Shown here one piece after another: positions 791-26,320 of a DNA stretch of 64,000 nt. The stretch is from a virus: positions 1-64,000 of the IMG/VR virus record IMGVR_UViG_3300036770_003738. One strand, written 5' to 3'. Below the pieces are notes generated by a model. It worked only from the letters and a program-made list of their open reading frames with translations. It was not told where the DNA came from and ran no database searches. The first letter of the stretch is position 1. Each line of letters begins with the position of its first letter. The position numbers and the translations under genes were made by a program.

Positions 791-3787
791 TTAATAATCT
801 CTTGTGATTTTTTGCGGGTTGCGTTGGCTATTTGACAACTGTTCAATTTGCTGTGCAGTTAGTCTAGTGTTGGTACCAGCTGCCGGAGGACTTGATCCGA
901 AGTCAGTAGCTACTGCTAATCCATTACTACTTACTGGACTACCGCCAGCAGTGGCCGCAAAACTGGTTCTGGCCATCTGAAGGGCTGCGTCTGGCGTTTG
1001 TCCACTGCGTCTTGCAGTAATATATGCCTGACTAGATTGCAATTGGGCAAGTGTCGGATCTGGAAAACTAGTAGGTGGGTTCAATATTTGTTGAACACCT
1101 TGTGCCAAGCTGCTAGTAGGTTGGGCTCCAGTGACACTAGTGGTTGCATTACGAGCTCGTTCAGCTAACAACTGAAGCTGACCATTACCACGGCCGGCGC
1201 CTGCAGTTGAATTTAGATTAACACCTGTTCTTGCAGCAACACCTGCTGATATATTGGGATCTCTAACAGGCTGCAAGTTGGTTGCTGCTGCTGCAGAGGT
1301 TGCGTTTCCTGTAACCGAGTTGCTACCATCTGGCTTGGGAAAGAAATACAAACTGCCGTTAATAGTCTGCTCAAACTTACCTTGTCTAAATTCGCTAGTG
1401 ACTTTGGTTGCTTGGTAAACATTACTTTGCAAAGGCTTTCGTTCACCATATTTGGCCTGCGTCTTTGAGTAGGGATCTGCTAATCCTGTGGATAGTAAAT
1501 AATCTTCTGGTCGCTGCCACGCAATTTCAAATAGAACTTGGCTGCTATCAAAATCAATTGTGCCGTCAGGCAAGAATCCTGGGGTCGCATTGTTTCCAGT
1601 AAATGTTTCGTTTGTAATTGGTCTAAACAAACTACCTTGTTGTATCCAAGCAGGATCTCCAATAATTTTTAATTTAGCAGTGTGTAGATCTCCGGGGCTG
1701 TACAAATACTCTGCTGCATTGCTACCAACTTCGTTGCTTTTACCCGGGCCGCCAGCGCCACTCTCAGTACTACGAGCAGCATAGACATACTTGGGAATGT
1801 CTCTCATGCTAGAAGTGTATTTTTCTCTAATTTGTTGTGATGCACTGTCTTCAGGAGTACTTCCACTAACAGTTACGTTATACAAACTGTTAAATTGTGC
1901 TTGATAATCAAGTACTGAATTATTTTGCCCAGTGAACCAGTAGTTGTACTGTTTGTGTAATCCTGGAAATTGGGTTGTTGGAAAATACTTGCTGTCAAAA
2001 TTAGCAACACGATACGGAGTTACTGTGTATTTGATTTTATAAGCATAATCATTTCTCAAAGGATCTATCTTGTCACCTATCTGTGTGGCGCTCATGGTGA
2101 TTGTGAACCAGCGCATGGGTTTGTTTCTTGCTTCTGGATTGGGCACTTGACTGCCATCAGCATTGGTTATAATCAAACTTTGATTGTAAATGTAGCTAGA
2201 GTTTCTAACTGCCAATTCAATTGCTTGTATAATTTGTTGTCCAGCAGTAATTGCCATGCTACGCTGGGCATTATCTGTAAATTGTCTTCCAGGATCTAGT
2301 GCCTGGCCGCCAGCTACAGTAGCCGGAGGCGCTTGTGGTGTTCCTTTTTTGTCAACTTTTTTATTGTCACTAAGAACAATAGTAGCTTGCTCAATATCGA
2401 TTGCACGTTCACCTAATGAACCATTTGCAAACTCAAGTTCATATTCGTCGGCTATACTATAAATTCCACGACGCACCAAGTCTTGCTGGAATTCGTTCAT
2501 GGCCCCCATTAAACCACCAGTAATAGTTTTCTTGTCTGTTGGTGCAGCATTAGCTTTTTGCGGAGCCGGTGTATTATTAAATGCTGCACCACTAAGTGGT
2601 CCTGAGTTTGAAGTAGTTGTAGCAGCTCCTGGTGCAGCCGCAGAAGTTGTTGCGCCTGCTTTGGGATTACCTTTGAGGACTTTGCCTACAGTTGCTGCAG
2701 TTAATTCTATATCGTAAGGAATTGTTCCTCGAGCAGTTGAACTAGCAATCAATTGTCCCACTGGCGCACATTCAAAATCGTAACTAACTAATTTACTGCC
2801 CACGCCCCAGTTAATTTTTTTAATTAAAAACGGTATGAATTTTTCAACTACCGCCGATGGATTACTTGCACTTTCGCCGTTAGTTGATGTGCCTGGGGTA
2901 ATCAGGTTGCCTGCTTCGTCGTACCCAAAAAATCTTATCACCATAAGGTACGTAGCGGCACTATAATTCACTGCGCCTGTTGCATCCTTAGGTGCTATAT
3001 CTTTAACTGCGCTATACAATCTATCAATTAAACTGATACCCATTGGCTCAATTACTGTAAATTTAAGATTGGTGACCATGTGCGCTGCACCAGTTTGTTT
3101 GCCCGGTAATGCGTTTTCAATAGTGATAGTGTCAATATAAAAATCGTAGTCAAAAAATGGATTTCGTCCAGCATCGGCACCAGTTACTGGCCCTACTGAC
3201 GGAGTAGCAGCCGAAGCTCCTTGCACTCCTCCAACATTGTTTGCAGCGCCACCGCTTTGAAACAATAACTGATAACCATTAACAGTTTTTTTCTTGCTGT
3301 TAAGCAATTGTTCGTACTGAGTAGGAGACATCAAATACACAGACGCTTGATAAGTGTAACTGGAAAACTTATCTAGCACGTTGGCTTGCGGTTTAACTTT
3401 AACCGCAGAATTAAATTCTGCATTGACATTAGTTTGTGTTGCTGTTGTTGAATTGTCTGCTGCATCAGCGCTAGCAGCGCCAATTCCTGCAGTAAGTTGT
3501 GCCTTTCCTCCAGCGTTAACTATACTGCTGTCAATGGCTCCGGGAATTTTAATTGGTTGACCAGAAAGAATTTGCGGAGTAGTGGCCTGACTTTGTGATA
3601 TTGTTAGTACTGCTGGGTTGGTGTTTGTATCAGCATTAGTTTCTGTCGTAGCTGTTGGCTGGGCATTGGTAGGAGGTGTAACTGCTGGTACCACAATTAT
3701 TCTGCCATTAGGCCCAATCTCTTGCACCGGAGGTTTAGTAAGGCCCTGCGGGCCGTCTGCTTGAACAGTTTGACTGGCTGTTGCCAT
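791..3787 (-). CDS. Large baseplate hub-associated structural protein (gp27/VgrG-like, tentative)
   Basis: 998-aa ORF between the gp53-like and gp5-like genes. The 'LKIIGDP' and 'YQATKVTSEFRQGKFEQ' segments resemble hub protein C-termini. Confidence 0.5.
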   Translation of the reverse strand: MATASQTVQADGPQGLTKPPVQEIGPNGRIIVVPAVTPPTNAQPTATTETNADTNTNPAVLTISQSQATTPQILSGQPIKIPGAIDSSIVNAGGKAQLTAGIGAASADAADNSTTATQTNVNAEFNSAVKVKPQANVLDKFSSYTYQASVYLMSPTQYEQLLNSKKKTVNGYQLLFQSGGAANNVGGVQGASAATPSVGPVTGADAGRNPFFDYDFYIDTITIENALPGKQTGAAHMVTNLKFTVIEPMGISLIDRLYSAVKDIAPKDATGAVNYSAATYLMVIRFFGYDEAGNLITPGTSTNGESASNPSAVVEKFIPFLIKKINWGVGSKLVSYDFECAPVGQLIASSTARGTIPYDIELTAATVGKVLKGNPKAGATTSAAAPGAATTTSNSGPLSGAAFNNTPAPQKANAAPTDKKTITGGLMGAMNEFQQDLVRRGIYSIADEYELEFANGSLGERAIDIEQATIVLSDNKKVDKKGTPQAPPATVAGGQALDPGRQFTDNAQRSMAITAGQQIIQAIELAVRNSSYIYNQSLIITNADGSQVPNPEARNKPMRWFTITMSATQIGDKIDPLRNDYAYKIKYTVTPYRVANFDSKYFPTTQFPGLHKQYNYWFTGQNNSVLDYQAQFNSLYNVTVSGSTPEDSASQQIREKYTSSMRDIPKYVYAARSTESGAGGPGKSNEVGSNAAEYLYSPGDLHTAKLKIIGDPAWIQQGSLFRPITNETFTGNNATPGFLPDGTIDFDSSQVLFEIAWQRPEDYLLSTGLADPYSKTQAKYGERKPLQSNVYQATKVTSEFRQGKFEQTINGSLYFFPKPDGSNSVTGNATSAAAATNLQPVRDPNISAGVAARTGVNLNSTAGAGRGNGQLQLLAERARNATTSVTGAQPTSSLAQGVQQILNPPTSFPDPTLAQLQSSQAYITARRSGQTPDAALQMARTSFAATAGGSPVSSNGLAVATDFGSSPPAAGTNTRLTAQQIEQLSNSQRNPQKITRDY

Positions 3788-3788
3788 G

Positions 3789-4088
3789 TTAGAATCCTAG
3801 TGCTGATCGCAGCGTAGTAATTTTAGGCAAATAAATCGTAGTGTTGGCTACAAAATCCATTGGCGGTCTTGTTAGTGTATTAGGATTTCGTTGATAAAAT
3901 ACCCACCATAAACTACCTGTACCGTACAAGTCAAACGCCAAAAGGTCGGGTCTATTTTGATAAGTCAAATTGATAGTAAATTGCAAATCGTCATCTTCTT
4001 TGGGTATAGGTCGATTTACCATGCTATCTAAATAGAATTGGTTAAACGGGGTAGAGTAATACGGACTAGTTGCATCGTAAGAAGCCAT
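3789..4088 (-). CDS. Baseplate wedge protein, gp53/LysM-like
   Basis: RPDLLAFDLYG...LWWVF...N motif typical of gp53-like LysM baseplate proteins. Confidence 0.7.
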   Translation of the reverse strand: MASYDATSPYYSTPFNQFYLDSMVNRPIPKEDDDLQFTINLTYQNRPDLLAFDLYGTGSLWWVFYQRNPNTLTRPPMDFVANTTIYLPKITTLRSALGF

Positions 4089-5369: not shown

Positions 5370-6290
5370 ATGACTTTAGCAACCAAACCTGCACCACGTG
5401 TAAACTATCTCAACAACAGAGATATTCTTAAAGAAATACATCTGAGCAAAAATACCTACTGCTGGTATCGTGATCGTGATCAAGATCATCAATATGATTT
5501 GATCTTACCGTCAGTGGACAAAATCAATCAGCGCACTATTGTAGAAGCACGTAAAAATCGTGCAGATCGTATCAAACGCGAAACAGGCGAAGTGATTGAT
5601 CAGAAAAAAATCCCTAACACAGATCTTGTGTTTCGTATCACTTGCTGGGACCATATTCCTATGGCGCCCAAAAAAATCACCAAGGCTGAAGCTAAGAAAC
5701 GCCGGCTTGAAGATATTTTGGACCTTGAGGATGTTACTGAAGATGATCCGCTAGCAGACTTAATCGAAGAGCCTGTATTAGATATGAACCATGTAAGGCT
5801 AAACTTCCCCCCGTTTGAACACTATCGAATCGACGACGAAAAACAACCGTTTATGGTGGGTCGCAGTCACTGGAAAGGCGACTTGGCTACAGGCGAGTTT
5901 TCCAGAGACCACGGCACAATGACTCGAAAACTAGCCATGATGTTTATGAAACTGTGCGAAAGATATGCCACAAGAAGCAACTGGCGTGGGTACACCTACA
6001 ACGAAGAAATGCGTGGACAAGCTCTACTACAGCTTAGTCAGATTGGTCTACAATTCGACGAGAGTAAGAGCCAAAACCCGTTTGCGTATTACACTGCTGC
6101 AATCACTAACAGCTTTACGCGGATTCTTAACATAGAAAAGAAAAATCAAAACATTCGAGATGACATTTTGGAGATCAACGGGCTCAATCCAAGTTGGACT
6201 CGGCAAAACTCCGGGAGCAAAAGCATGGCAGCCATGTCCGGTCCGGTTGTTAGCAGCCTCAACGATGTAGTACAATCACTAGATGAGTAA
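5370..6290 (+). CDS. gp55: Late-transcription sigma factor (T4 gp55-like)
   Basis: NYLNN..IL N-terminus and ERYATRSNWRGYTYNEEM...FDESKSQNPFAYYT motif; conserved gp55-gp47-gp46 order. Confidence 0.9.
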   Translation: MTLATKPAPRVNYLNNRDILKEIHLSKNTYCWYRDRDQDHQYDLILPSVDKINQRTIVEARKNRADRIKRETGEVIDQKKIPNTDLVFRITCWDHIPMAPKKITKAEAKKRRLEDILDLEDVTEDDPLADLIEEPVLDMNHVRLNFPPFEHYRIDDEKQPFMVGRSHWKGDLATGEFSRDHGTMTRKLAMMFMKLCERYATRSNWRGYTYNEEMRGQALLQLSQIGLQFDESKSQNPFAYYTAAITNSFTRILNIEKKNQNIRDDILEINGLNPSWTRQNSGSKSMAAMSGPVVSSLNDVVQSLDE

Positions 6291-7299
6291 TCTATTTCGA
6301 AAAGCAGCAATCTTCACTGACATTCACTTTGGACTCAAGTCAAACAGCCAACTTCACAACGAAGACTGTTTGGCTTTTGTAAAGTGGGCTACTGCCAAGG
6401 CCAAAGAAGAAGGCTGCGAAACTTGTTTGTTTTTGGGCGATTGGCACAACAACCGATCTACCCTGAACATCGTCACACTCAACTACAGCCTACAGGCCCT
6501 GGAGCATTTGAATGACAATTTTGAACGTGTGTATTTTATCCCTGGTAACCATGATTTATATTATCGCGATAAACGTGACATTCAAAGCGTGGAGTGGGCA
6601 AAGCACCTCCCTCGTATTCAAATCTGCAATGATTGGTTTAGCGACGGTAATGTCACTATTGCCCCTTGGCTATGTGGAGACGATCATAAGAAACTGGCCA
6701 AACTGAGTGGCCAGTACTTGTTTGGACACTTCGAATTGCCCGGATACCTGATGAACGCCATGGTGGAGATGCCCGATCATGGAGAAATTCAACGGGAAGA
6801 TTTAGCAGGATTTGAGCATGTATTCACCGGACACTTCCACAAGCGACAGACTAAAAAGAATATTACCTATATCGGTAATGCGTTCCCTCACAACTACGCA
6901 GACGCTGGTGACGACGAACGAGGTCTCACTGTGTTGGAATGGGGATCAGCGCCTGAGTTTCATGCTTGGCCTGCTCAACCAACGTACCGCGTCTTCGGGC
7001 TTGCAAATCTTATTGATAATGCACCATCTCTTCTCAAGCCCAAGATGCATGTTCGTGTAAATCTCGATATTGAAATCTCATACGAAGAAGCAGGGTTTAT
7101 CAAAGATAACTTTGTGGCTCAATATCAATTGAGAGAAATGGCTTTGATTCCCAACAAGACATCGGGGGTAAGTGAAGATCTTGCACCCGGAGATGTCAAG
7201 TTTGAGTCAGTAGATCAAATCGTGACAGACCAACTTACCAACATTGAGTCTGAGTTCTACGACAACAAACTCTTGCTAAAAATTTACCAAACTCTATGA
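6283..7299 (+). CDS. gp47: Recombination endonuclease subunit (Mre11/SbcD-like)
   Basis: Metallophosphoesterase motifs DIHFG, GDWH, GNHD, GHFE, GHFH. Confidence 0.92.
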   Translation: MSNLFRKAAIFTDIHFGLKSNSQLHNEDCLAFVKWATAKAKEEGCETCLFLGDWHNNRSTLNIVTLNYSLQALEHLNDNFERVYFIPGNHDLYYRDKRDIQSVEWAKHLPRIQICNDWFSDGNVTIAPWLCGDDHKKLAKLSGQYLFGHFELPGYLMNAMVEMPDHGEIQREDLAGFEHVFTGHFHKRQTKKNITYIGNAFPHNYADAGDDERGLTVLEWGSAPEFHAWPAQPTYRVFGLANLIDNAPSLLKPKMHVRVNLDIEISYEEAGFIKDNFVAQYQLREMALIPNKTSGVSEDLAPGDVKFESVDQIVTDQLTNIESEFYDNKLLLKIYQTL

Positions 7300-8117
7300 T
7301 TTATTGTGTCTGGTATCCCAGCGGAGGATTTGGACACTTTGTTAATGCAATATTATCATTGTACGGAAATAATTTTGCAAGGCCTAACAAAGTATTGTCT
7401 TTTTCTAATACTGGAGATAGTCATGACCTAGATTTGGTGGTCCCTAAATATCTACATAATCAGTGGCCCATAAACTTCAATTTTTCCAGGTCTACAAATT
7501 ATTCTGTGTTGATTGACAACGGAATCAATGATGAGAGTATCAAATTCAAATCAGTGTTTCCCGAATCAACAGTTATTAAAATTTGCTACACAGATGTCAG
7601 TTGGCCAATTATTGCTCGTACCATGGTAGAAAAAGCAATGAGTAGCAAAATTGAAACTATATTAACTACCGACGCATGGCATGGCAACGAAGACTGGGTA
7701 CGAAGGGAAAAATATTTCTTGTATCTCAGAGATCATGAGTTAAGATCAGCGTGGCGCATTAATGATATCAGCGATCGTTCGATTTTTGTTGATCAAATGT
7801 GTCAGTACCAAACCATGTTTGATGCTGTTAATACTATCGCAGTTACTGAATCTTTTGAAAATGTCTGGAAACAGTGGAGAACTGCAAACGACGTGTATAT
7901 TTTGCCAGTAGAAATTGCTCAAAAAATTATCAGCTTTGTCAAAAACAAAACGTCTTTTGATCTAAGTCACATCACAGATGTATGGACACAATCAGTTGTG
8001 TATTATTTCATTCAACTGGAGTTTGGTATCGAAGTCCCACACAATGATTATTCAAACTGGTTTACAAATGTTGCTGATATTAATAAAATGTTAAGTAATC
8101 ACGGAGTTAGCACTTGA
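7296..8117 (+). CDS. Hypothetical protein (possible P-loop/sulfotransferase-like fold) inserted between gp47 and gp46
   Basis: 273-aa AT-rich ORF overlapping both neighbours; N-terminal YPSGGFGHF glycine loop. Confidence 0.6.
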   Translation: MIYCVWYPSGGFGHFVNAILSLYGNNFARPNKVLSFSNTGDSHDLDLVVPKYLHNQWPINFNFSRSTNYSVLIDNGINDESIKFKSVFPESTVIKICYTDVSWPIIARTMVEKAMSSKIETILTTDAWHGNEDWVRREKYFLYLRDHELRSAWRINDISDRSIFVDQMCQYQTMFDAVNTIAVTESFENVWKQWRTANDVYILPVEIAQKIISFVKNKTSFDLSHITDVWTQSVVYYFIQLEFGIEVPHNDYSNWFTNVADINKMLSNHGVST

Positions 8118-10195
8118 TTCAATTTAAAAATTTAACAGTTAAAAACTTTATGAGTGTGGGCAATGCCACACAAGGCGTCAACTTCGATCGCAAGGATCTT
8201 ACACTTGTTCTAGGTGAAAATTTAGACTTAGGCGGCGACGGCAGTCGCAACGGTACAGGTAAAACTACAATCATCAATGCACTAAGTTATGCATTGTATG
8301 GCAATGCATTGAGTAACATTCGCAAGGACAACCTTGTGAACAAGACCAATGCCAAGCACATGCTGGTCAGTTTAGATTTTAGCGTTAATGGGCAAGAGTA
8401 TCGTATTGAACGCGGACGCAAGCCCAATGTGCTGCGCTTTTTTGTTAATAACGAAGACAAATCTGTTACCGATGATGCCCAAGGCGACAGTCGAGAAACA
8501 CAAGACGCTATTGAGCGTGTGATCGGTATGAGCCACGATATGTTCAAGCATGTGCTGGCTTTAAACACATATACCGAACCATTTTTAAGTTTAAAAGCCA
8601 ATGAACAGCGGGCTATTATTGAACAGTTGTTGGGCATCACGCTACTAAGCGAACGTGCTGATCGAATCAAAGAACTCAATCGACAGACTAAGGAAGCTAT
8701 TACGCAAGAAGAAATGCGCACCCGTGCTGTGCAGGAAGCCAACCGACGCATCGAAGAACAGATCGAAAGCCTACAACGCCGACAGAACATGTGGAAAACC
8801 AAGTACGACAGCGATCTGCTAGCATTGGTTACACAGTACGATGACCTGTCAAAGATCAACATTGATGTTGAGCTCGAAGCGCACCGTGCCTTAAGCACAT
8901 GGTCACAGCTTAAAAAAGCCAAAGAAACTCGTGATGCACTAGTTGCTCGTCAAACTGCTTGGCAACAAAAGCATGATACAGAAGTTGCGACTGCAGGCCG
9001 GGCATACTCAGACAAGAACCGCATTGATATCGAAACAGAGCTGAATGCGTGGGCTGCTGTAACAGCGTATAATCAAAAGTCTAGAGACATTGCTGAACTA
9101 GAAAAACTAATTGCCCGTTGTGTAGCAGACGATGCTAAAGAAACCAAACAGGTCAACAAGTTAAAAGCCGAAGTTGAAGAACTGAAAAATCACAAGTGCT
9201 ATGCTTGTGGTCAAGATTTCCACGATGCCAATCACGAATCAGTGTTGGCAGCAAAAGAAAAAGCTCTACAAGAAGCAGCATTACAAGCCTTAGCCACAAA
9301 CACACAGTGGATTGAGCATTCTAGCGCATTAGCTGCGCTAGGAGAGCTTGGGGTTAGGCCAGTGACACACTACGCTACTGAAGCAGAAGCCATTCGCCAT
9401 TCCGGCGAACTCAACAGTCTAAAGCAGGCATTGGATTTGAAACAGTCTGAGTCAAGTCCGTTTGCTGAACAGCTGGCCGAACTGGAAGATGTTACTGTAC
9501 CACCAATGCCTGTTACACATTATGACACTGAGGCCGAAGCAGTCAAGCACTCTAGTCAAGTTGGTAGCCTGCTAACACAGATCACCAACAAGCATGCTGA
9601 ACAGGATCCTTATGAGGAACAGATCAAGGACATGCAGGAGCAGGCCCTGCAAGTGGTCAGTTATGATGCTTTGAACGAACTGGTTCGAGTACAAGAGCAT
9701 CAGGACTTCTTGCTCAAACTGCTGACTTCAAAAGATAGTTTTGTTCGCAAGAAAATCATTGATCAGAACTTGAGTTACTTGAATCAACGACTCACACACT
9801 ATCTGGATCGCATTGGTTTGCCACACACTGTGAAGTTCCAAAACGACTTAACCGTGAGCATCGAAGAACTGGGCCGCGAGCTAGACTTTGACAACTTGAG
9901 TCGCGGTGAGCGCAACAGACTTATTCTAAGCATGAGCTGGGCCTTCAGAGATGTATGGGAAAGCCTGTACCATCCCATCAACTTGTTGTTTATTGACGAA
10001 CTGATTGACAACGGGCTAGACACCGCAGGTGTTGAAAATGCCTTGGGCTTGCTGAAGAAAATGAGTCGTGAGCGCCACAAGAGCGTTTGGTTAGTTAGTC
10101 ACCGTGACGAACTAGCTGGACGAGTTGAGAACATTCTCAAAGTGGTCAAAGAAAACGGCTTTACTAATTACAATACAGACGTAGAATTATCTTAA
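8114..10195 (+). CDS. gp46: Recombination ATPase subunit (Rad50/SbcC-like)
   Basis: Walker A NGTGKT, zinc hook CYAC, signature LSRGE, Walker B LLFIDE, H-loop VSH; TTG start overlapping the upstream TGA. Confidence 0.93.
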   Translation: MIQFKNLTVKNFMSVGNATQGVNFDRKDLTLVLGENLDLGGDGSRNGTGKTTIINALSYALYGNALSNIRKDNLVNKTNAKHMLVSLDFSVNGQEYRIERGRKPNVLRFFVNNEDKSVTDDAQGDSRETQDAIERVIGMSHDMFKHVLALNTYTEPFLSLKANEQRAIIEQLLGITLLSERADRIKELNRQTKEAITQEEMRTRAVQEANRRIEEQIESLQRRQNMWKTKYDSDLLALVTQYDDLSKINIDVELEAHRALSTWSQLKKAKETRDALVARQTAWQQKHDTEVATAGRAYSDKNRIDIETELNAWAAVTAYNQKSRDIAELEKLIARCVADDAKETKQVNKLKAEVEELKNHKCYACGQDFHDANHESVLAAKEKALQEAALQALATNTQWIEHSSALAALGELGVRPVTHYATEAEAIRHSGELNSLKQALDLKQSESSPFAEQLAELEDVTVPPMPVTHYDTEAEAVKHSSQVGSLLTQITNKHAEQDPYEEQIKDMQEQALQVVSYDALNELVRVQEHQDFLLKLLTSKDSFVRKKIIDQNLSYLNQRLTHYLDRIGLPHTVKFQNDLTVSIEELGRELDFDNLSRGERNRLILSMSWAFRDVWESLYHPINLLFIDELIDNGLDTAGVENALGLLKKMSRERHKSVWLVSHRDELAGRVENILKVVKENGFTNYNTDVELS

Positions 10196-10233: not shown

Positions 10234-10662
10234 ATGACATGGATATACAACAATCAACCAGTAGAGGAACTACCCGAAGACTGCGTGGGCTTTGTGTATC
10301 TCATCGTCAACAATCTCAATCAACGCAAATACATAGGCAAAAAACTAGCAAAATTCTCCAGGACTACGCAACGTACAGTCAAATTAAAGAACGGCACCAA
10401 AAAAAAGAAAAAAATCCGCACTAAGGTTGACAGCGACTGGCGCGACTACTACGGTAGCAGCCCCGAGCTTTCCCGAGATGTGGAGCAGTTAGGCAAAGAA
10501 AACTTTACCAGAGAAATATTATTTTATTGTAAAAGCAAAGCCGAATGCAGTTACATCGAAGCTAGAGAACAATTCACCAACAAAGTATTAGAATCAAAGG
10601 ACTGGTACAACGGGCACATACAAGTGCGTGTACACGGCAGTCATATTATAGGCAAACTTTAA
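10234..10662 (+). CDS. GIY-YIG (Seg-like) endonuclease, catalytic domain only
   Basis: GFVYLI...KYIGKK motif, YYGSS, FTREIL, E-x-R-E-Q, WYN; Lys-rich insertion KLKNGTKKKKKIRTK. Confidence 0.85.
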   Translation: MTWIYNNQPVEELPEDCVGFVYLIVNNLNQRKYIGKKLAKFSRTTQRTVKLKNGTKKKKKIRTKVDSDWRDYYGSSPELSRDVEQLGKENFTREILFYCKSKAECSYIEAREQFTNKVLESKDWYNGHIQVRVHGSHIIGKL

Positions 10663-10669
10663 GCAGTTA

Positions 10670-11112
10670 AGACTCGCACAGGTCAATCCCGTGTGCCGAA
10701 CAGAAGAAACCTGGATCTAGGATCGCAGGGAACCGAAGCCTTGCCGCTGCTAGCAAGCACTCAATCACTATCCTTAACAGGACGAAGATCGCTAATTGCC
10801 GCGGTTTGATTGTTTGAACAGAATTTTAAAGGCTAAAAAGACGTACGATCGCTCGTACACTTTATACTACCCAGTTAGCGTTGGGGAGTATAAACGCCGT
10901 TGTTATAAGACGCAACTCGAGGTACCGGACAACCGCCTCTGTAATCGTTGTAACGCTAAGTGACTTGCCCGACTCGGATGAAGTTATTTTCTTTGCCCTG
11001 CGCGGGCAAAGTGTGACCATAAGATCTGGATGAATACTTAGATCGCTTCGCTCTTGTTAATCAGTTTGTTGTTGAGCGATAGCGAAAACAACAGATGTAC
11101 GAAGTACATCTT
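10670..11112 (+). ncRNA. Candidate large structured non-coding RNA (or structured ssDNA element); family not recognised
   Basis: About 450 bp with no ORF in an otherwise tightly packed genome. At least 10 helices are visible, plus an 8-nt loop-distal complement (10875-82 with 10952-59). Strand is inferred from the upstream gene. Confidence 0.6.
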
Positions 11113-11118
11113 AAAGTG

Positions 11119-11454
11119 TTATAAGTTTTGATCTGGCCAATCTCTAAACAGTGCATGCTGAATGTCTCCAGCAACAAACTGATTAAATGACTTGTGTTTT
11201 GTCTCTAGCTCACCTTCTAGTGGTGCCACTCGTTTGAAAGCACTATCCATTTGCCCCATGTCTTTAAATTCCATAAGAATCATCCATTCGGGCATGTCTG
11301 CTATTGAACGAAATCCCATCTTGCATCGCGTGATGCGATAGCTTTCCATCTTGCCTTCTGAGATCAAGTGATCAAAAAAACTTTTCATGCCGTTGACCCA
11401 GTCAAGATCTGAAATGTCGCCAGATTTGTTGGCCCAGATTGTATAAATGTCCAT
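11119..11454 (-). CDS. Small dimeric alpha/beta-barrel-like protein (resembles DUF6614)
   Basis: Likely start MDIYTIW at 11454 with AGGAG SD; YRITRCKMGF..PEW.ILMEF..M.Q.D.AF pattern; family recalled from memory. Confidence 0.6.
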   Translation of the reverse strand: MDIYTIWANKSGDISDLDWVNGMKSFFDHLISEGKMESYRITRCKMGFRSIADMPEWMILMEFKDMGQMDSAFKRVAPLEGELETKHKSFNQFVAGDIQHALFRDWPDQNL

Positions 11455-11455
11455 A

Positions 11456-12598
11456 TTAACTCCTGTTTGGAAAAAAATCTTGTTGAACACCTTCGCGGTG
11501 TAAATCCGATGTTACACAATGAATGCCGCCGTCCCAAAAGTATCTATGTCTAAATGGGACAATGTGCGTGGTGATACCATAACGTTCTAGCGCATCAAAT
11601 ACTTGTTTATTATAGTTAAACACTATAACATTCTTGGGATCAATGATTAACATATTGACATCGAATACCGTTTCTTCAACATAACCAGTCCAATGGTCCA
11701 ACCATGTTTCAACAGTATCTACTACTGCTTGGTCGTACTCAAATCCAGGTATCCACCACTTGCCTCGATTTTTCTTTTTAAGATCTAGAAAAGGTACAAT
11801 TTTTTCCCAACTTTGGCCTGGTAGATAAATTACTTCCCAATCAGGAAAAGTGTCAGCATAAGTTGGTACATCTTGTAAACTTATAATTAATCCAGGAGTA
11901 ACAGGACAATATACAGCATCGCTGTGTCCGCCTGTATTGATAATATGATTCCTTGTTGTTGTAAATTCAGTGTTGATAAAAGATTCTAGTGGCCTGGTGT
12001 TGTAATTCTGACTTGGTGTTCCAAAATATAAATCTTTGCCAATTCGAGTCATGTTTGCACCGCCAATGACCTCGTATAAATTGCTAGGGGCTTGATTAAC
12101 AATATTTCCTTTGCTTTTTATTCTATTAATAATATCAGTGTAACACCCGTTGTCAATACATAACTTTCTCTGAAAGTTATGTATTGTTAAACATTCATCG
12201 ATGATTCTCTGTGGTAACTGATCAAATTCTTCTATGGTGTTGCACTCTGGCCACGATGGGTCTTTAACATTGCTGTAAAAATTTTTAAAAGGTATGTAAT
12301 GATTAAAATAACATTTATTATCTATCATTACACTAACGTCTCTGGGAGTCATCGGGGGTGCGACAAACTTTCCGTCAACAAATGTTTCTTTGGGTAAGTT
12401 AGGTCGTAATACTTCTACACCAAAACTTTCTAGTTTTTTAATAATTTCTTGATAATCTTCTTCTGTTTCAATGGCTATTCTTTCAAATAAAGATCTAACG
12501 TGTGGAACTTTAATCCACGAATAAAACTCTGGAGGATAACTACGTCCTACCACACATACTTTTAGTGGGTCCCAGTGCTGATGTACTGAAAATGTCAT
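11456..12598 (-). CDS. Amidinotransferase (pentein superfamily; glycine/inosamine-phosphate amidinotransferase-like)
   Basis: WDPLK..VVG N-terminus, LESFGVEVLRP, TPRD, GHSD, VNML, GGIHC.T.D..R C-terminal motif. Confidence 0.85.
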   Translation of the reverse strand: MTFSVHQHWDPLKVCVVGRSYPPEFYSWIKVPHVRSLFERIAIETEEDYQEIIKKLESFGVEVLRPNLPKETFVDGKFVAPPMTPRDVSVMIDNKCYFNHYIPFKNFYSNVKDPSWPECNTIEEFDQLPQRIIDECLTIHNFQRKLCIDNGCYTDIINRIKSKGNIVNQAPSNLYEVIGGANMTRIGKDLYFGTPSQNYNTRPLESFINTEFTTTRNHIINTGGHSDAVYCPVTPGLIISLQDVPTYADTFPDWEVIYLPGQSWEKIVPFLDLKKKNRGKWWIPGFEYDQAVVDTVETWLDHWTGYVEETVFDVNMLIIDPKNVIVFNYNKQVFDALERYGITTHIVPFRHRYFWDGGIHCVTSDLHREGVQQDFFPNRS

Positions 12599-13529: not shown

Positions 13530-13765
13530 TAGAAGAATGGTAGTTTTGACTTCTTGGTTGTGTCAAGATTATCTTTGATGATGTTGGAAATCATACTGCG
13601 CTCTTTGCTGCTCAATGCTAAAACTTGATCGTATGTAATACCGCCTCGCATGTACCAAGACATTTTTAAACTTTCTTGCCGAATGCTTTCGGCCTCCTTT
13701 TCCATACTGTCTACCAGTGCTGCAATTTGCTCAGCATCAGAGGTCAGGAGGCGGGTGCGAAAAAA
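13529..13765 (-). CDS. Baseplate/tail assembly chaperone C-terminal part (gp51-like), probably expressed by -1 frameshift from the upstream ORF
   Basis: WYMRGGITY...LS..ER motif; its frame overlaps the end of the upstream ORF across a T TTT TTC heptamer. Confidence 0.6.
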   Translation of the reverse strand, partial: FFRTRLLTSDAEQIAALVDSMEKEAESIRQESLKMSWYMRGGITYDQVLALSSKERSMISNIIKDNLDTTKKSKLPFF

Positions 13766-14586
13766 CTCGTCATGTCCAATGTCATTGGTTGATCGTATTG
13801 GTGATCGCATTCGATACATTGAATTTTAAGCGGTTTAATTTCAGAGTCTAATCTTAGATTAATAACTTTGTCACGAATTTCGTTGAACAATGCCCTGTCG
13901 CAGTTCTTTAAGAAGTCTTCTATAAACTCAGGCTCACTTACTATAGCTTGCGGAGTACGAATACTTTGAATACTCCATTTAAGCGACTTGACTGTGAGCT
14001 CTGTGATTTTTTGCAGTACTTGATGCATGCGAGCTAGCTTTTCTTGTTCAGGTAAATCGCTAGCAGGCAAGAGCTGCATGACTTTTTGTTCTTCGAACTG
14101 TGCCTGGTTAGTTTCGTTTTGTGTTTTATAGGTAATCGGTTGAAATGTGATCGTAAGGTCACCGTGGCTAAGAGGCTCAGCAAAGCTAGGGCACTTCAAT
14201 TGATCTAGCACATTACGTAAATCAATGGTGTAATCAGACTCGGTGCCGCAGTTTGGGCACTTGCTACCAATTTCTAAATCGTGCCCGTAGCTAGCAATGC
14301 GAATAGCAGTAAGTATTGCATTGATATCAGGCCCGGGTGCCGCCCATGCATTTTTGATGTTCGGAATACAGCTTTGAATAACGTTAATCACAGCTTGTCC
14401 GTTAAACAGTGCATCGGGTGTTCGGTAAGTGATTTCGTCAATGGCAGTCATTGGCAGTACAGGCAACTCACCGTTTGCGGGCATGTCCAAGCTGCCAGCG
14501 GCCCAATGCGCACCGCCAGAAGGCAAACGCAAATATATTGCAGGTTGTCTAAAATATTGACGTAGCGGGTTAGCAATTTGGTTCAT
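13744..14586 (-). CDS. Baseplate hub assembly chaperone (T4 gp26-like)
   Basis: LPSGG, PMTA.DE, IRIASYG, CPNC and CIEC zinc motifs, C-terminal FF; divergent from the tape measure gene. Confidence 0.75.
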   Translation of the reverse strand: MNQIANPLRQYFRQPAIYLRLPSGGAHWAAGSLDMPANGELPVLPMTAIDEITYRTPDALFNGQAVINVIQSCIPNIKNAWAAPGPDINAILTAIRIASYGHDLEIGSKCPNCGTESDYTIDLRNVLDQLKCPSFAEPLSHGDLTITFQPITYKTQNETNQAQFEEQKVMQLLPASDLPEQEKLARMHQVLQKITELTVKSLKWSIQSIRTPQAIVSEPEFIEDFLKNCDRALFNEIRDKVINLRLDSEIKPLKIQCIECDHQYDQPMTLDMTSFFAPAS

Positions 14587-25526: not shown

Positions 25527-25592
25527 TCTAGTCCGCAATACTGCGGCTTATGCTGAGATTAATACCCACAGCGTAGCGACTAGAACTCGCAG
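25527..25592 (+). promoter_or_regulatory. Structured 5' leader after late promoter TAAATA (25521-26)
   Basis: Hairpins ccgca/tgcgg, tatgctg/cagcgta and gcga/tcgc; alternative closing helix tctagtc/gactaga. Confidence 0.5.
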
Positions 25593-25615
25593 ACTTATTA
25601 CAAGGAAACAAACAA

Positions 25616-26320
25616 ATGGGTCGTCCTCTAAAAATCAAAAAATCTACTACCAGTGACATTGGTTTCAATCCGTTTAGCGCATTAACTAACCCGGTGTATC
25701 CATCTGATCCTACTGTGTTCGATGGTACAGAATATCTTGGCGTGGTTGGCGGTGCAAATGCCAACGTAGCGTCTGCTGCGTATCCAGTGGTCAAGTGTCG
25801 TGCTTTTATCACCGGTACAGGGGCAGAAGATGATGCTTACATCATTACACAAAAAGGTACTATTAAGTATCAAGTGGCTACAGTGACCGCAGTGGCTGAC
25901 GAAGATCTTGTAGCAGGCCAAGCTTATCGAATTTTAACAGTAGGCACAACCGACTGGGTAGCGTGTGGTGCAAGCGATTCCAACGCTGCAATCGGTGATA
26001 TCTTTACTGCAACAGCAGCAGGTTCAGGCACAGGTACTGCTCAAGCAGTCGGCACATGCATTTTGGCCAATGAAGCTGATTCTGCACTAACCGAAGGCAA
26101 CATGAACATTACTTTCAGCACTGGCGACAGTACTGCTCAGTTGATCAGCCGTCTGACCAACAAGTTTGCACTAGACTACAGCACACCGCCAGTTCGCTAT
26201 GCTGTAAACTTCTTCAGTGACGAAGGTTACGAAATCAAGAGCGGAACCACTGGTGCAACCAACGTTTCGGGACAGCAAAACCAAGTCAGCTTGGCGATTG
26301 TAGAGAACTTTACATCGTAA
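25616..26320 (+). CDS. Virion structural protein (hypothetical)
   Basis: 234 aa, Thr/Ala/Gly-rich, late promoter and AAGGA SD; contains a 'GQAYRILTVGTTDW...G..FTAT' module. Confidence 0.65.
   Translation: MGRPLKIKKSTTSDIGFNPFSALTNPVYPSDPTVFDGTEYLGVVGGANANVASAAYPVVKCRAFITGTGAEDDAYIITQKGTIKYQVATVTAVADEDLVAGQAYRILTVGTTDWVACGASDSNAAIGDIFTATAAGSGTGTAQAVGTCILANEADSALTEGNMNITFSTGDSTAQLISRLTNKFALDYSTPPVRYAVNFFSDEGYEIKSGTTGATNVSGQQNQVSLAIVENFTS

What the first reader, a model, noticed from the sequence alone, without database searches (positions are those of the whole stretch)
10234..11112. Minimal GIY-YIG nuclease followed by a ~450-nt pseudoknotted non-coding element: candidate new nuclease-RNA system
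Seen: this is the largest ORF-free gap in the window, and it is filled with helices. These are gcaca/tgtgc (10676/10692), cctggatc/gatcgcagg (10710/10721), cttgc/gcaag (10740/10753), caatca/tgattg (10762/10807) enclosing tcct/agga, gtacga/tcgtac (10843/10853), tttatact/agtataaa (10861/10887), gcaac/gttgt enclosing gagg-cgg/ccg-cctc (10912-10951), and ctttgccc/gggcaaag (10991/11004). The apical TTAGCGTT (10875-82) is the exact complement of AACGCTAA (10952-59), which suggests a long-range pseudoknot. GAACAGAA (10698, 10816) and GGATGAA (10976, 11028) each occur twice. The upstream GIY-YIG protein is only 142 aa. It lacks the C-terminal DNA-recognition domains of T4 Seg/I-Tev enzymes but has a very basic insertion (KLKNGTKKKKKIRTK). 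Known: compact nucleases paired with an adjacent structured RNA define HEARO/OMEGA-type systems. Inference: the RNA could supply specificity to the nuclease (an RNP), or it could be an independent large phage ncRNA. It does not look like tmRNA, RNase P or a tRNA.
Basis: partly seen in the sequence, partly recalled or inferred. Interest (0 to 1): 0.85.

Follow-up and report, generated by a model that had tools for sequence, protein, structure and literature searches.

The report
Large knotted RNA of giant phage
The gene-free stretch behind a small nuclease gene of this uncultured giant T4-like freshwater phage encodes a real, multiply knotted non-coding RNA of about 450 bases whose first third is a catalogued but unexplained motif, and nothing indicates that it guides the nuclease.

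Summary
Window 10663-11111 (+) is a conserved non-coding RNA. On 130 distinct relatives, 111 proposed pairs are 86.4% paired against 72.3% in shuffles.

It is only partly new. Bases 10671-10815 are Rfam Polynucleobacter-1 (RF01718, 91 bits, cut-off 37). The middle (10838-10962) is a doubly knotted core that resembles a second orphan motif, cow-rumen-2, but scores below its cut-off. The tail carries one 7-letter word twice, identical in 129 of 130 RNAs across 9 different words.

The nuclease-RNA idea is not supported:
- The RNA follows the GIY-YIG gene in 105 of 107 testable loci, but always in the same gene order.
- Six unrelated genes can sit between the two.
- One RNA stands alone with a promoter-like -10 box upstream.
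- 16 of 80 loci found through the GIY-YIG protein, and two cultured-phage loci read, lack the RNA.
- No guide-like segment exists.
- The nuclease does not track the twin word.

Function is unknown. My best guess is a stand-alone, trans-acting RNA. This scan had already reported the same RNA class on at least eight other genomes.

The parts
10234..10662 (+). Stand-alone SegE-type GIY-YIG domain protein, 142 aa. A neighbour of the RNA, not shown to be its partner.
   Evidence: Pfam PF19835, E 7.6e-34, profile 1-123/123. AF2 model pLDDT 91.6. Best viral fold matches are 131-159-aa SegE-like proteins, E 3e-18. No PDB match by sequence or Foldseek.
10663..11111 (+). Whole conserved structured RNA. 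The 3' end is uncertain: the core may end near 11053.
   Evidence: nhmmer profile hits cover the whole span in relatives. 111 pairs on 130 sequences. G-U cells outnumber A-C cells 958 to 346, which points to the + strand.
10671..10815 (+). Domain 1: Polynucleobacter-1 RNA motif (Rfam RF01718).
   Evidence: cmscan 91 bits against a cut-off of 37, model 1-141/141.
10663..10667 (+). 5' strand of a pseudoknot with the loop 10746-10750. It lies upstream of the Rfam model start and 1 nt after the GIY stop codon.
   Evidence: My MAFFT alignment: 10663:10751 GC 44/AT 43/GT 16/TA 11, Z 14; 10665:10749 Z 17. Poorly aligned in A1 (57.9% paired).
10796..10835 (+). Loop 10796-10800 pairs with 10831-10835, which lies beyond the Rfam model end. 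This ties domain 1 to the rest.
   Evidence: CG 72/GC 38, UA 74/CG 35 and CG 115 at three of its pairs; Z about 10.
10843..10858 (+). Hairpin P5.
   Evidence: Covarying; 77% paired in A1 because of length variants.
10861..10894 (+). Long hairpin P6.
   Evidence: 12 of 12 pairs show double changes and many G-U pairs. The pseudoknot is 97.0% paired, 7 of 7 pairs with double changes.
10899..10959 (+). Core: 10899-903 pairs with 10929-33 (second pseudoknot). P8 is 10912-16/10947-51 and P9 is 10919-22/10936-39. The stretch GGTACCGGAYRACCGCC is invariant. This core resembles cow-rumen-2.
   Evidence: 99.5%, 94.3% and 96.2% paired. RF02947 matches full-length but below cut-off: 16.5 bits here, 22.9 bits in L103. 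Model R1, built on 10838-10962, finds cow-rumen-2 sites weakly.
10960..10985 (+). Twin module 1, with box GGATGAA at 10976-82.
   Evidence: Box 1 equals box 2 in 129 of 130 RNAs over 9 words. Identity covariation Z 10-24.
10991..11011 (+). Hairpin P10 between the two modules.
   Evidence: 91.5% paired, 3 of 8 pairs with double changes.
11013..11038 (+). Twin module 2, with box GGATGAA at 11028-34.
   Evidence: As for module 1.
11044..11052 (+). Mini-hairpin P11 (GCTTCGC).
   Evidence: 82% paired, 2 of 3 pairs with double changes.
11053..11066 (.). A+T-rich spacer of variable length.
   Evidence: Insert site 11060/61: mean +11.6 nt, maximum 37, present in 123 of 130.
11067..11110 (.). Two terminal hairpins: P12 (with conserved GAGCGATAGCGAA) and P13. 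Possibly a two-way terminator or a DNA-level signal rather than part of the RNA core.
   Evidence: P13 is 98.1% paired, 7 of 7 pairs with double changes and almost no G-U. G-U 58 against A-C 93 cells for P12-P13. A terminator-like site on the - strand at 11111-11093 has tail GTTGTTTTCG.
11119..11490 (-). Convergent DUF6614 gene; marks the end of the gap.
   Evidence: Pfam PF20319, E 1.7e-21.

Best explanation
Window 10663 to about 11111 (+) is a single-copy gene for a large structured non-coding RNA of giant (about 345 kb) freshwater T4-like phages. It is modular.
1. A 5' domain that is the catalogued Polynucleobacter-1 motif. It is extended by one pairing strand upstream and one downstream of the Rfam model.
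2. A doubly pseudoknotted core with an invariant GGUACCGGAYRACCGCC stretch. This core is a distant relative of the cow-rumen-2 motif.
3. A tail in which two copies of one 7-letter word flank a hairpin.
4. After an A+T-rich spacer, two hairpins that may serve as a terminator.

Inferred, not shown:
- The RNA is made as the 3' end of the gp47-gp46-GIY transcript, or from its own promoter where it stands alone.
- It folds into a compact particle and acts in trans.
- One still unknown partner, most simply a two-fold symmetric protein, reads the twin word twice.

The GIY-YIG protein is a conserved neighbour in this lineage. It is not a guided nuclease.
For: Real RNA on the + strand:
- 111 pairs on 130 distinct sequences are 86.4% paired against 72.3% in shuffles (0 of 500 shuffles reach it).
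- 2098 cells show changes on both sides, against 680 in shuffles.
- With partners slid by 1-3 columns, pairing falls to 34-44%.
- G-U against A-C cells: 458 to 151 in domain 1 and 389 to 79 in domain 2.

Not coding: the small ORFs are intact in 0 of 129 relatives (four ORFs) or 4 of 129 (one ORF).

Membership and modularity:
- RF01718 scores 91 bits here, is found in 7 of 7 short ordinary-form loci and in L181, L129 and L123.
- A second form of the RNA has a different 5' domain. RF01718 is found in none of it (0 of 5; 0 of 3).
- My core model nevertheless finds this second form in 9 of 9 loci (E 1.7e-8 to 1.7e-3).

Single copy: one RF01718 match in a 99%-complete 345,154-nt relative.

Autonomy:
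- L181 has a TATAAT-like box about 10 nt upstream of the RNA and no adjacent nuclease.
- Six different ORFs are found inserted between GIY and the RNA.

Twin word: identical in 129 of 130 RNAs over 9 words.
Against: - No transcript evidence. No RNA run holds the stretch, so the ends, abundance and even expression are untested.
- The partner of the twin word is unknown. Its reverse complement is not enriched anywhere within 4 kb.
- Identical boxes could also come from an RNA-RNA contact or from copy correction between the two.
- The tight position right after a stop codon, always at a convergent gene junction (114 of 114 loci with a hub-gene hit), would also fit a cis-acting role.
- The last two hairpins carry almost no G-U pairs, so they may not belong to the RNA.
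- The cow-rumen-2 kinship rests on sub-threshold scores (16.5-22.9 bits against a cut-off of 66; my model reaches at best 21 bits, E 0.009).
- That kinship also rests on loci that I picked with a pattern sharing letters with my model.
Confidence: 0.6

Rival explanations
1. Nuclease-RNA system. The RNA binds the minimal GIY-YIG protein and supplies target specificity or control, as omega RNAs do for IscB or TnpB.
For: - GIY lies directly upstream on the same strand in 105 of 107 testable RNA-first loci, mostly 0-80 nt away.
- The protein has no DNA-binding domain.
- It carries a basic beta-hairpin in the model.
- It is more conserved (73-89%) than gp46 (45-83%) in the same loci.
Against: - The RNA occurs without GIY (L181) or with a RusA-like gene in its place (L123).
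- 16 of 80 GIY loci sit in an nrdA-nrdB setting without the RNA.
- 499 cultured-phage records hold GIY relatives, blastn of the RNA finds no match in that collection, and the two loci I read hold no RNA.
- Six unrelated ORFs are inserted between the two.
- There is no constant-length hypervariable segment.
- GIY columns track the twin word less than gp46 or hub columns do: maximum normalised MI 0.49 against 0.69 and 0.77.
Confidence: 0.06
2. Cis-acting end-of-operon element. The structure protects the upstream early or middle mRNA from 3' exonucleases. Alternatively, it stops or insulates transcription where early and late units converge.
For: - The RNA starts within a few nt of the stop codon of whichever ORF lies upstream.
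- It lies at a convergent junction in 114 of 114 loci with a hub-gene hit.
- There is a terminator-like hairpin for the - strand at 11111-11093.
- The terminal hairpins use almost only Watson-Crick pairs, as a two-way terminator would need.
Against: - Some 390 nt with four or five pseudoknots and invariant unpaired stretches is far more than a stabiliser or terminator needs.
- L181 has the RNA behind a promoter-like -10 box and in front of a co-directional gene that has its own promoter-like site (TTGACA, spacer, TATAAT).
- The related cow-rumen-2 RNAs occur in several copies per genome in different settings.
Confidence: 0.15
3. Replication-origin element. A structured primer or R-loop transcript is followed by an A+T-rich unwinding stretch and by DNA hairpins.
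For: - A+T-rich spacer of variable length at 11053-66.
- The locus sits beside recombination genes gp46/gp47 and is flanked by hot spots of gene insertion.
- From my own recollection, not from any call: T4 origins use a transcript plus an unwinding element and lie near uvsY and baseplate genes.
Against: - From recollection, known T4 origin transcripts need no conserved tertiary fold.
- Nothing here tests replication.
- GC skew cannot separate this reading from the change of coding strand at the same place, so I did not run it.
Confidence: 0.09
4. Ligand-sensing or catalytic RNA (riboswitch-like or ribozyme). The invariant double-pseudoknot core would be a binding pocket or active site.
For: - Invariant GGTACCGG..ACCGCC, CCG and other unpaired positions across 130 sequences.
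- A compact nested pseudoknot core.
- Weinberg et al. 2010 scored Polynucleobacter-1 as probably cis-regulatory with 'switch ?' (Table 1 passage).
Against: - No downstream gene on the same strand in this lineage.
- No match to any riboswitch or ribozyme family of Rfam 15, even at E up to 10.
- No cleavage or ligand data.
Confidence: 0.08

Closest known systems
Polynucleobacter-1 RNA motif (Rfam RF01718; Weinberg et al. 2010, Genome Biol 11:R31, PMC2864571; I saw only the Table 1 passage)
   Same: Bases 10671-10815 match the whole 141-position model at 91 bits. The habitat (fresh water) is the same and the function is equally unknown.
   Different: - The catalogued motif is 141 nt and was scored as probably cis-regulatory.
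- Here it is the first third of a roughly 450-nt RNA. It is tied to the rest by a pairing that crosses the model's 3' end.
- No gene follows it on the same strand.
- It is replaceable: the second form of the RNA has another 5' domain.
cow-rumen-2 RNA motif (Rfam RF02947; named in the Rfam 15 paper PMC11701678, Table 2 passage seen; origin in the 224-motif survey is recalled, not seen)
   Same: - Same order of elements: a hairpin capped by UUAGC, then GCCGCC, then an inner hairpin GAGGUAC(A/C)GGAYRACCGCCUC, then GUAA.
- Matches are full-length and collinear in both directions of search.
- It also sits inside longer conserved sequence in giant phages.
   Different: - Scores are far below the family cut-off (16.5-22.9 bits against 66).
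- My sequence profile finds none of the 55 loci.
- True cow-rumen-2 RNAs occur in up to three loci of one contig, in rumen-type phages and in other gene settings.
OMEGA/HEARO-type guide RNAs (IscB, IsrB and TnpB omega RNAs)
   Same: A compact nuclease gene next to a structured, pseudoknotted RNA of a few hundred bases.
   Different: - The nuclease fold differs: GIY-YIG, not RuvC.
- There is no guide segment and no obligate linkage.
- No transposon ends were noticed.
- The RNA is conserved as a whole rather than split into scaffold plus variable guide.
Large ornate phage-associated RNAs (GOLLD, ROOL; ROOL cryo-EM cage mentioned in PMC13622246, passage seen)
   Same: A large, intricately folded RNA of unknown function carried by phages, found by comparative genomics.
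   Different: No sequence or model match to those families. This RNA is smaller (about 450 nt). Multimer formation is untested.
T4 Seg-type free-standing homing endonucleases (SegE family)
   Same: The protein's fold and Pfam family.
   Different: - It has only the catalytic domain (142 aa), with no DNA-binding tail.
- It is nearly fixed in the lineage (105 of 107 loci) rather than sporadic.
- It is highly conserved.

Membership tests
Rfam RF01718 Polynucleobacter-1 | Covariance-model score at or above the curated cut-off (37 bits) over the full model | tested here: met
   91 bits, model 1-141/141 at 10671-10815.
Rfam RF01718 Polynucleobacter-1 | Model helices kept by compensatory change in relatives | tested here: met
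   P1 99.4%, P3 95.2%, P4 97.4% and P4b 99.5% paired, with double changes.
Rfam RF01718 Polynucleobacter-1 | Position as a 5' leader of a downstream gene (scored 'cis-reg: y' in Weinberg 2010, Table 1) | tested here: not met
   The next gene is convergent in 114 of 114 loci with a hub-gene hit. About 300 nt of further structured RNA follow the motif.
Rfam RF02947 cow-rumen-2 | Covariance-model score at or above the curated cut-off (66 bits) | tested here: not met
   16.5 bits in the window and 22.9 bits in L103. Only 2 of the 8 ordinary-form sequences scanned gave any hit at E up to 10.
Rfam RF02947 cow-rumen-2 | Shared architecture and core letters (kinship rather than membership) | tested here: inconclusive
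   Full-length collinear alignments. My model R1 hits 16 of 55 cow-rumen-2 loci at E up to 1, always on the Rfam site, and 0 of 4 control loci. However, the loci were picked by a pattern that shares letters with the model.
RNA-guided nuclease systems (OMEGA/HEARO, TnpB-type) | Nuclease and RNA always occur together | tested here: not met
   RNA without GIY: L181 and L123. GIY without RNA: 16 of 80 loci, plus two cultured-phage loci.
RNA-guided nuclease systems (OMEGA/HEARO, TnpB-type) | A hypervariable guide segment of constant length beside a conserved scaffold | tested here: not met
   The variable parts are two 7-10-nt loops, a hairpin loop and a spacer of variable length.
RNA-guided nuclease systems (OMEGA/HEARO, TnpB-type) | RuvC-type (IscB/TnpB) nuclease and transposon ends | tested here: not met
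   The protein is a GIY-YIG domain. Transposon ends were not searched for specifically.
RNA-guided nuclease systems (OMEGA/HEARO, TnpB-type) | Physical complex and RNA-dependent cleavage | not testable with these tools
   Needs biochemistry.
Seg-type free-standing homing endonuclease | GIY-YIG catalytic domain of the SegE type | tested here: met
   PF19835, E 7.6e-34. BFVD fold matches.
Seg-type free-standing homing endonuclease | C-terminal DNA-binding domain and patchy presence among close relatives | tested here: not met
   The protein is 142 aa and the profile covers residues 3-129. It is present in 105 of 107 testable RNA-first loci.
tRNA, tmRNA, RNase P, group I intron | Detection by ARAGORN or the Rfam models | tested here: not met
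   0 tRNA or tmRNA genes in the window. No such Rfam match at E up to 10 in 10500-11300.

The most novel reading that the evidence does not exclude
Polynucleobacter-1 and cow-rumen-2 are not small RNAs. They are domains of one widespread class of large (350-500 nt), doubly knotted RNAs of giant T4-like phages, from lakes to the rumen. The class shares an invariant core that binds a ligand or catalyses a reaction, and a twin-word tail read twice by a partner that co-evolves with the word. On this reading it is a new phage ribonucleoprotein or ribozyme acting during infection.
Probability: 0.25. Interest if true: 0.8.

Novelty: new variant of a known kind. Interest (0 to 1): 0.55.

Why it matters
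- Two orphan Rfam entries would be re-read as parts of much larger phage RNAs. That changes how they should be modelled, searched for and tested.
- The twin word (9 versions, always identical in both copies) is a built-in genetic handle for finding the partner.
- It would add a large structured RNA of unknown function to the few known from phages.
- It is also a caution: a small nuclease next to a structured RNA is not in itself evidence of an RNA-guided system.

Tried and rejected
- **RNA runs:** no RNA holder listed, so expression is untested. I did not lay reads.
- **Prokaryote genomes:** the scan with a loose 17-letter pattern gave 120 loci, and none is a real match by nhmmer. The pattern was too degenerate and G+C-rich, so the single scan was wasted. 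I could not look at the Polynucleobacter copy of the motif.
- **blastn of the RNA against 50,697 phage records:** no match.
- **Structure searches for the protein:** PDB sequence search found nothing (best 3r3p, E 0.42). Foldseek against PDB also found nothing at E 0.001 or better.
- **Extra helices in the twin-module region:** 10976-79 x 11024-27, 10980-85 x 11029-34, 10961-63 x 10974-76 and 11044-48 x 11074-78 are compatible with pairing (62-100% paired). None shows double changes beyond shuffles, so I do not claim them. 11049-53 x 11081-85 is mostly unpaired in A1 (16-21%), so I reject it.
- **A nearby RNA reader of the twin word:** 43 reverse-complement hits lie scattered within 4 kb, with no preferred place.
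- **GIY as reader of the word:** no signal above the gp46 and hub controls. The test is crude, because more variable proteins inflate the measure.
- **A fixed promoter upstream of the RNA:** none is common to all loci.
- **My nhmmer profile on the 55 cow-rumen-2 loci:** no hit.
- **Literature:**
  - 'Polynucleobacter-1' occurs in 1 paper of the library.
  - 'cow-rumen-2' occurs in 2 records, both versions of the Rfam 15 paper.
  - A search on GIY-YIG plus structured RNA listed nothing that describes this pairing (listing only).
  - The 2023 survey of virus RNAs (PMC10690425, passages seen) reports candidates of 29-151 nt and dropped those overlapping Rfam. Pieces of this RNA may be in its supplementary tables.
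The same holds for Additional file 3 of Weinberg 2010.
Full report
**What is in the window**

The window belongs to an IMG/VR virus record of 84,592 nt that CheckV rates 25% complete. Around the finding the + strand carries:
- a late sigma factor gene (5370-6290; phrog_12791)
- an SbcD/gp47-like gene (6283-7299; phrog_100)
- an unknown ORF
- an SMC/Rad50-like gp46 gene (8114-10195)
- the 142-aa GIY-YIG gene (10234-10662; Pfam PF19835, E 7.6e-34, profile matched 1-123 of 123)

Then come 456 nt without any ORF of 90 aa or more, the longest such gap in the window. Convergent genes follow on the - strand, starting with a DUF6614 gene (11119-11490). They reach a baseplate-hub gene at 13744-14586 (phrog_150, E 4.7e-16). 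ARAGORN finds no tRNA or tmRNA gene in the window.

**First test against known families**

cmscan places Rfam RF01718, Polynucleobacter-1, on 10671-10815 (+) at 91 bits. The cut-off is 37 and the whole model (1-141) is matched. Nothing reaches a cut-off on the remaining 300 nt. The only paper in the library that holds the motif's name is Weinberg et al. 2010. I saw its Table 1 passage: RNA 'y', cis-regulatory 'y', switch '?', found in Burkholderiales and in fresh water and estuaries.

**Relatives**

The best 80 loci were kept.
- An nhmmer profile of the gap finds the RNA in 63 of these 80 loci.
119 of them hold the RNA.
- From these two sets came 142 full-length copies, 130 of them distinct.
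- The whole span from the stop codon of the upstream ORF to about 11111 is conserved. Conservation drops on both sides.

**Structure**

A mutual-information screen recovered the helices. I then counted 111 proposed pairs in 21 helices on alignment A1:

| Measure | Proposed structure | 500 shuffles | Partners slid by 1-3 columns |
|---|---|---|---|
| Cells paired | 86.4% | 72.3% (none reach it) | 34-44% |
| Cells changed on both sides | 2098 | 680 | 280-542 |
| Covariation score | 0.402 | 0.166 | 0.05-0.10 |

The per-helix figures are listed under the observation check and parts.

His long-range pseudoknot (10875-81 with 10953-59) is 97.0% paired, and all seven pairs show changes on both sides. 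His inner 'cgg/ccg' stem is replaced by a second pseudoknot, 10899-10903 with 10929-10933 (99.5% paired; UA 82/CG 48 and GC 86/AU 35/GU 8).

Three further crossing pairings emerged:
- 10671-73 with 10682-84.
- 10663-67 with the loop 10746-50. The 5' strand lies upstream of the Rfam model.
- The loop 10796-10800 with 10831-35. The 3' strand lies downstream of the Rfam model, so this pairing ties the catalogued motif to the rest of the molecule.

MAFFT aligns some helices poorly (PK0, PK2, outer P6, P12), so their percentages are underestimates.

**Strand and coding**

| Region | G-U cells | A-C cells |
|---|---|---|
| Domain 1 | 458 | 151 |
| Domain 2 | 389 | 79 |
| P10-P11 | 53 | 23 |
| Last two hairpins (P12-P13) | 58 | 93 |

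The functional strand is therefore + for the core. The last two hairpins behave differently. They lie behind an A+T-rich spacer of variable length (mean +11.6 nt, up to 37). One of them, read on the - strand, looks like an intrinsic terminator of the convergent operon. I therefore leave the 3' end open, at about 11053 or about 11111. The small ORFs in the gap are not kept in relatives, and length differences show no frame preference.

**Modularity**

- About a dozen loci carry a second form of the RNA (for example L005, L012, L019, L037).
  - Its first 210 nt or so are different. RF01718 does not match it (0 of 5 loci; 0 of 3).
  - The core and tail are kept.
  - A covariance model built from 46 ordinary-form middle domains finds this second form in 9 of 9 loci.
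- cow-rumen-2 (RF02947) aligns full-length but below cut-off to 10862-10959 (16.5 bits). It does the same at the matching place in L103 (22.9 bits; E 0.027 in a 221-nt search).
  - The shared elements are a UUAGC hairpin loop, GCCGCC, GAGGUAC(A/C)GGAYRACCGCCUC and GUAA.
- I fetched 55 viral loci with a pattern taken from the printed cow-rumen-2 consensus.
  - 14 of the 20 I scanned are true members (90-113 bits).
  - My model hits 16 of the 55 at E up to 1 (best 21 bits), always on the Rfam site, and 0 of 4 control loci.
  - My sequence profile finds none of the 55.
  - I read this as probable distant kinship, not membership. The choice of loci shares letters with the model.
  - By eye, the true cow-rumen-2 RNAs also sit in longer conserved sequence, with two ACAGAT-like boxes around a hairpin. 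I did not test this.

**The twin word**

The 7 letters at 10976-82 and at 11028-34 are identical in 129 of 130 RNAs, although nine different words occur:

| Word | RNAs |
|---|---|
| AGATAAT | 33 |
| GGATGAA | 26 |
| GGATAAT | 24 |
| GGATGAT | 16 |
| GCATAAT | 11 |
| AGATGAA | 8 |
| AGATGAT | 6 |
| AGATGAG | 4 |
| GGATGAG | 1 |

Positions 1, 2, 5 and 7 vary in several combinations, so shared descent alone is an unlikely cause. Something reads both boxes alike, or the boxes touch or correct each other. The reverse complement of the word is not enriched at any place within 4 kb. The helices I proposed around the boxes are compatible with pairing but show no double changes.

**Is the nuclease the partner?**

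For a link: in RNA-led loci the GIY-YIG gene lies upstream on the same strand in 105 of 119. Twelve more are cut off upstream, and two have room but no GIY.

Against a link:
- The gene order is the same everywhere: gp47, gp46, GIY, RNA, then a convergent hub gene in 114 of 114 loci with a hub hit.
- Six unrelated ORFs of 225-334 aa occur between GIY and RNA, each ending at the RNA's first bases.
- L123 has a RusA-like gene instead of GIY.
- L181 has the RNA behind a TATAAT-like box, next to a divergent gene. The only GIY-like match on its 76-kb contig is weak and 28 kb away.
- 16 of the 80 GIY-led loci carry a 73-79% identical protein behind nrdA-nrdB, overlapped by the next gene and without the RNA. 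A seventeenth locus is merely truncated.
- 499 cultured-phage records, mostly T4-like cyanophages, encode relatives below 60% identity. The two contexts I read (Melnitz, ACP17) hold no RNA.
- No guide-like segment exists.
- GIY residues track the twin word less than gp46 or hub residues do (a crude test).
- The protein models confidently (pLDDT 91.6). It resembles short SegE-like proteins and the N-domains of Seg endonucleases.
- The 'basic insertion' is part of that family's profile.

**What it most likely is**

It is a single-copy gene. There is one RF01718 match in a 99%-complete 345,154-nt relative, and one second-form copy in a 346,856-nt genome with terminal repeats. The product is a large modular RNA.

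- Shown: the fold, the strand, the modular build, and its independence from the nuclease.
- Inferred: that it is cut from or ends the early or middle transcript, that it acts in trans, and that a two-fold partner reads the twin word.

None is excluded. I have no transcript data.

**Earlier reports of this scan**

I looked these up after my own analysis. Follow-up agents had already described the same 'twin-box Polynucleobacter-1 phage RNA' on at least eight other genomes, and enlarged cow-rumen-2 RNAs on others, with the same verdicts. These are AI notes, not independent evidence. My results agree with them.

**Verdict**

The RNP reading is not supported and the 'independent large phage ncRNA' reading is. 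Against the literature searched, this is a new, much larger variant of a known orphan motif.

Noticed in passing
window 25531-25618 (+): Rfam freshwater-2 RNA (RF02980) just above its cut-off (51.8 bits against 49.9), in front of the ORF at 25616-26320.
   Followed up: no
L005, L010, L012, L019, L022, L025, L035, L037, L008 (about 3430-3900 in most): A second form of the RNA. Its first 210 nt or so are different, conserved and match no Rfam family. The core and twin-word tail are the same.
   Followed up: partly
L007, L058, L051/L049, L070, L068, L096/L133, L130 (between GIY stop and RNA start): A hot spot of gene gain. Six unrelated ORFs of 225-334 aa are inserted exactly between the GIY-YIG gene and the RNA. 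The stretch between the RNA and the convergent hub gene also varies, from 203 to 3576 nt.
   Followed up: partly
L325-L379 (cow-rumen-2 loci), e.g. L348 3521-3626: True cow-rumen-2 RNAs sit in longer conserved sequence. They occur in up to three loci of one contig in phage contigs of 411-424 kb. In 15 of 55 loci they lie 160-194 nt upstream of a baseplate-hub gene (phrog_150) homologous to window 13744-14586. That is the same neighbour as here, but co-directional instead of convergent.
   Followed up: partly
L013, L030-L032, L034, L036, L038, L039, L041, L044, L052, L062, L064, L067, L078, L080: The same small GIY-YIG protein (73-79% identical) sits in another phage setting: behind nrdA, nrdB and a 227-aa ORF, and overlapped by a 334-aa membrane or coiled-coil ORF.
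   Followed up: partly
window 10234-10662 against loci L001-L200: The GIY-YIG protein is more conserved (73-89% identity) than gp46 (45-83%) in the same loci. It is present in nearly all relatives, which is unlike a typical homing endonuclease. In GenBank phage records it is often labelled 'NAD synthetase', which looks like a carried-over misnomer.
   Followed up: partly
window 5370-6290 (+): A late-transcription sigma factor (phrog_12791, E 2.1e-76) lies directly upstream of the gp47/gp46 genes.
   Followed up: no
window 10650-10655 and the matching place in relatives: A GGCAAA word recurs just upstream of the RNA in many loci, in different reading frames of the upstream ORF. It resembles the 3' strand of hairpin P10, but by eye on two loci (L054, L024) it does not covary with it.
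   Followed up: partly
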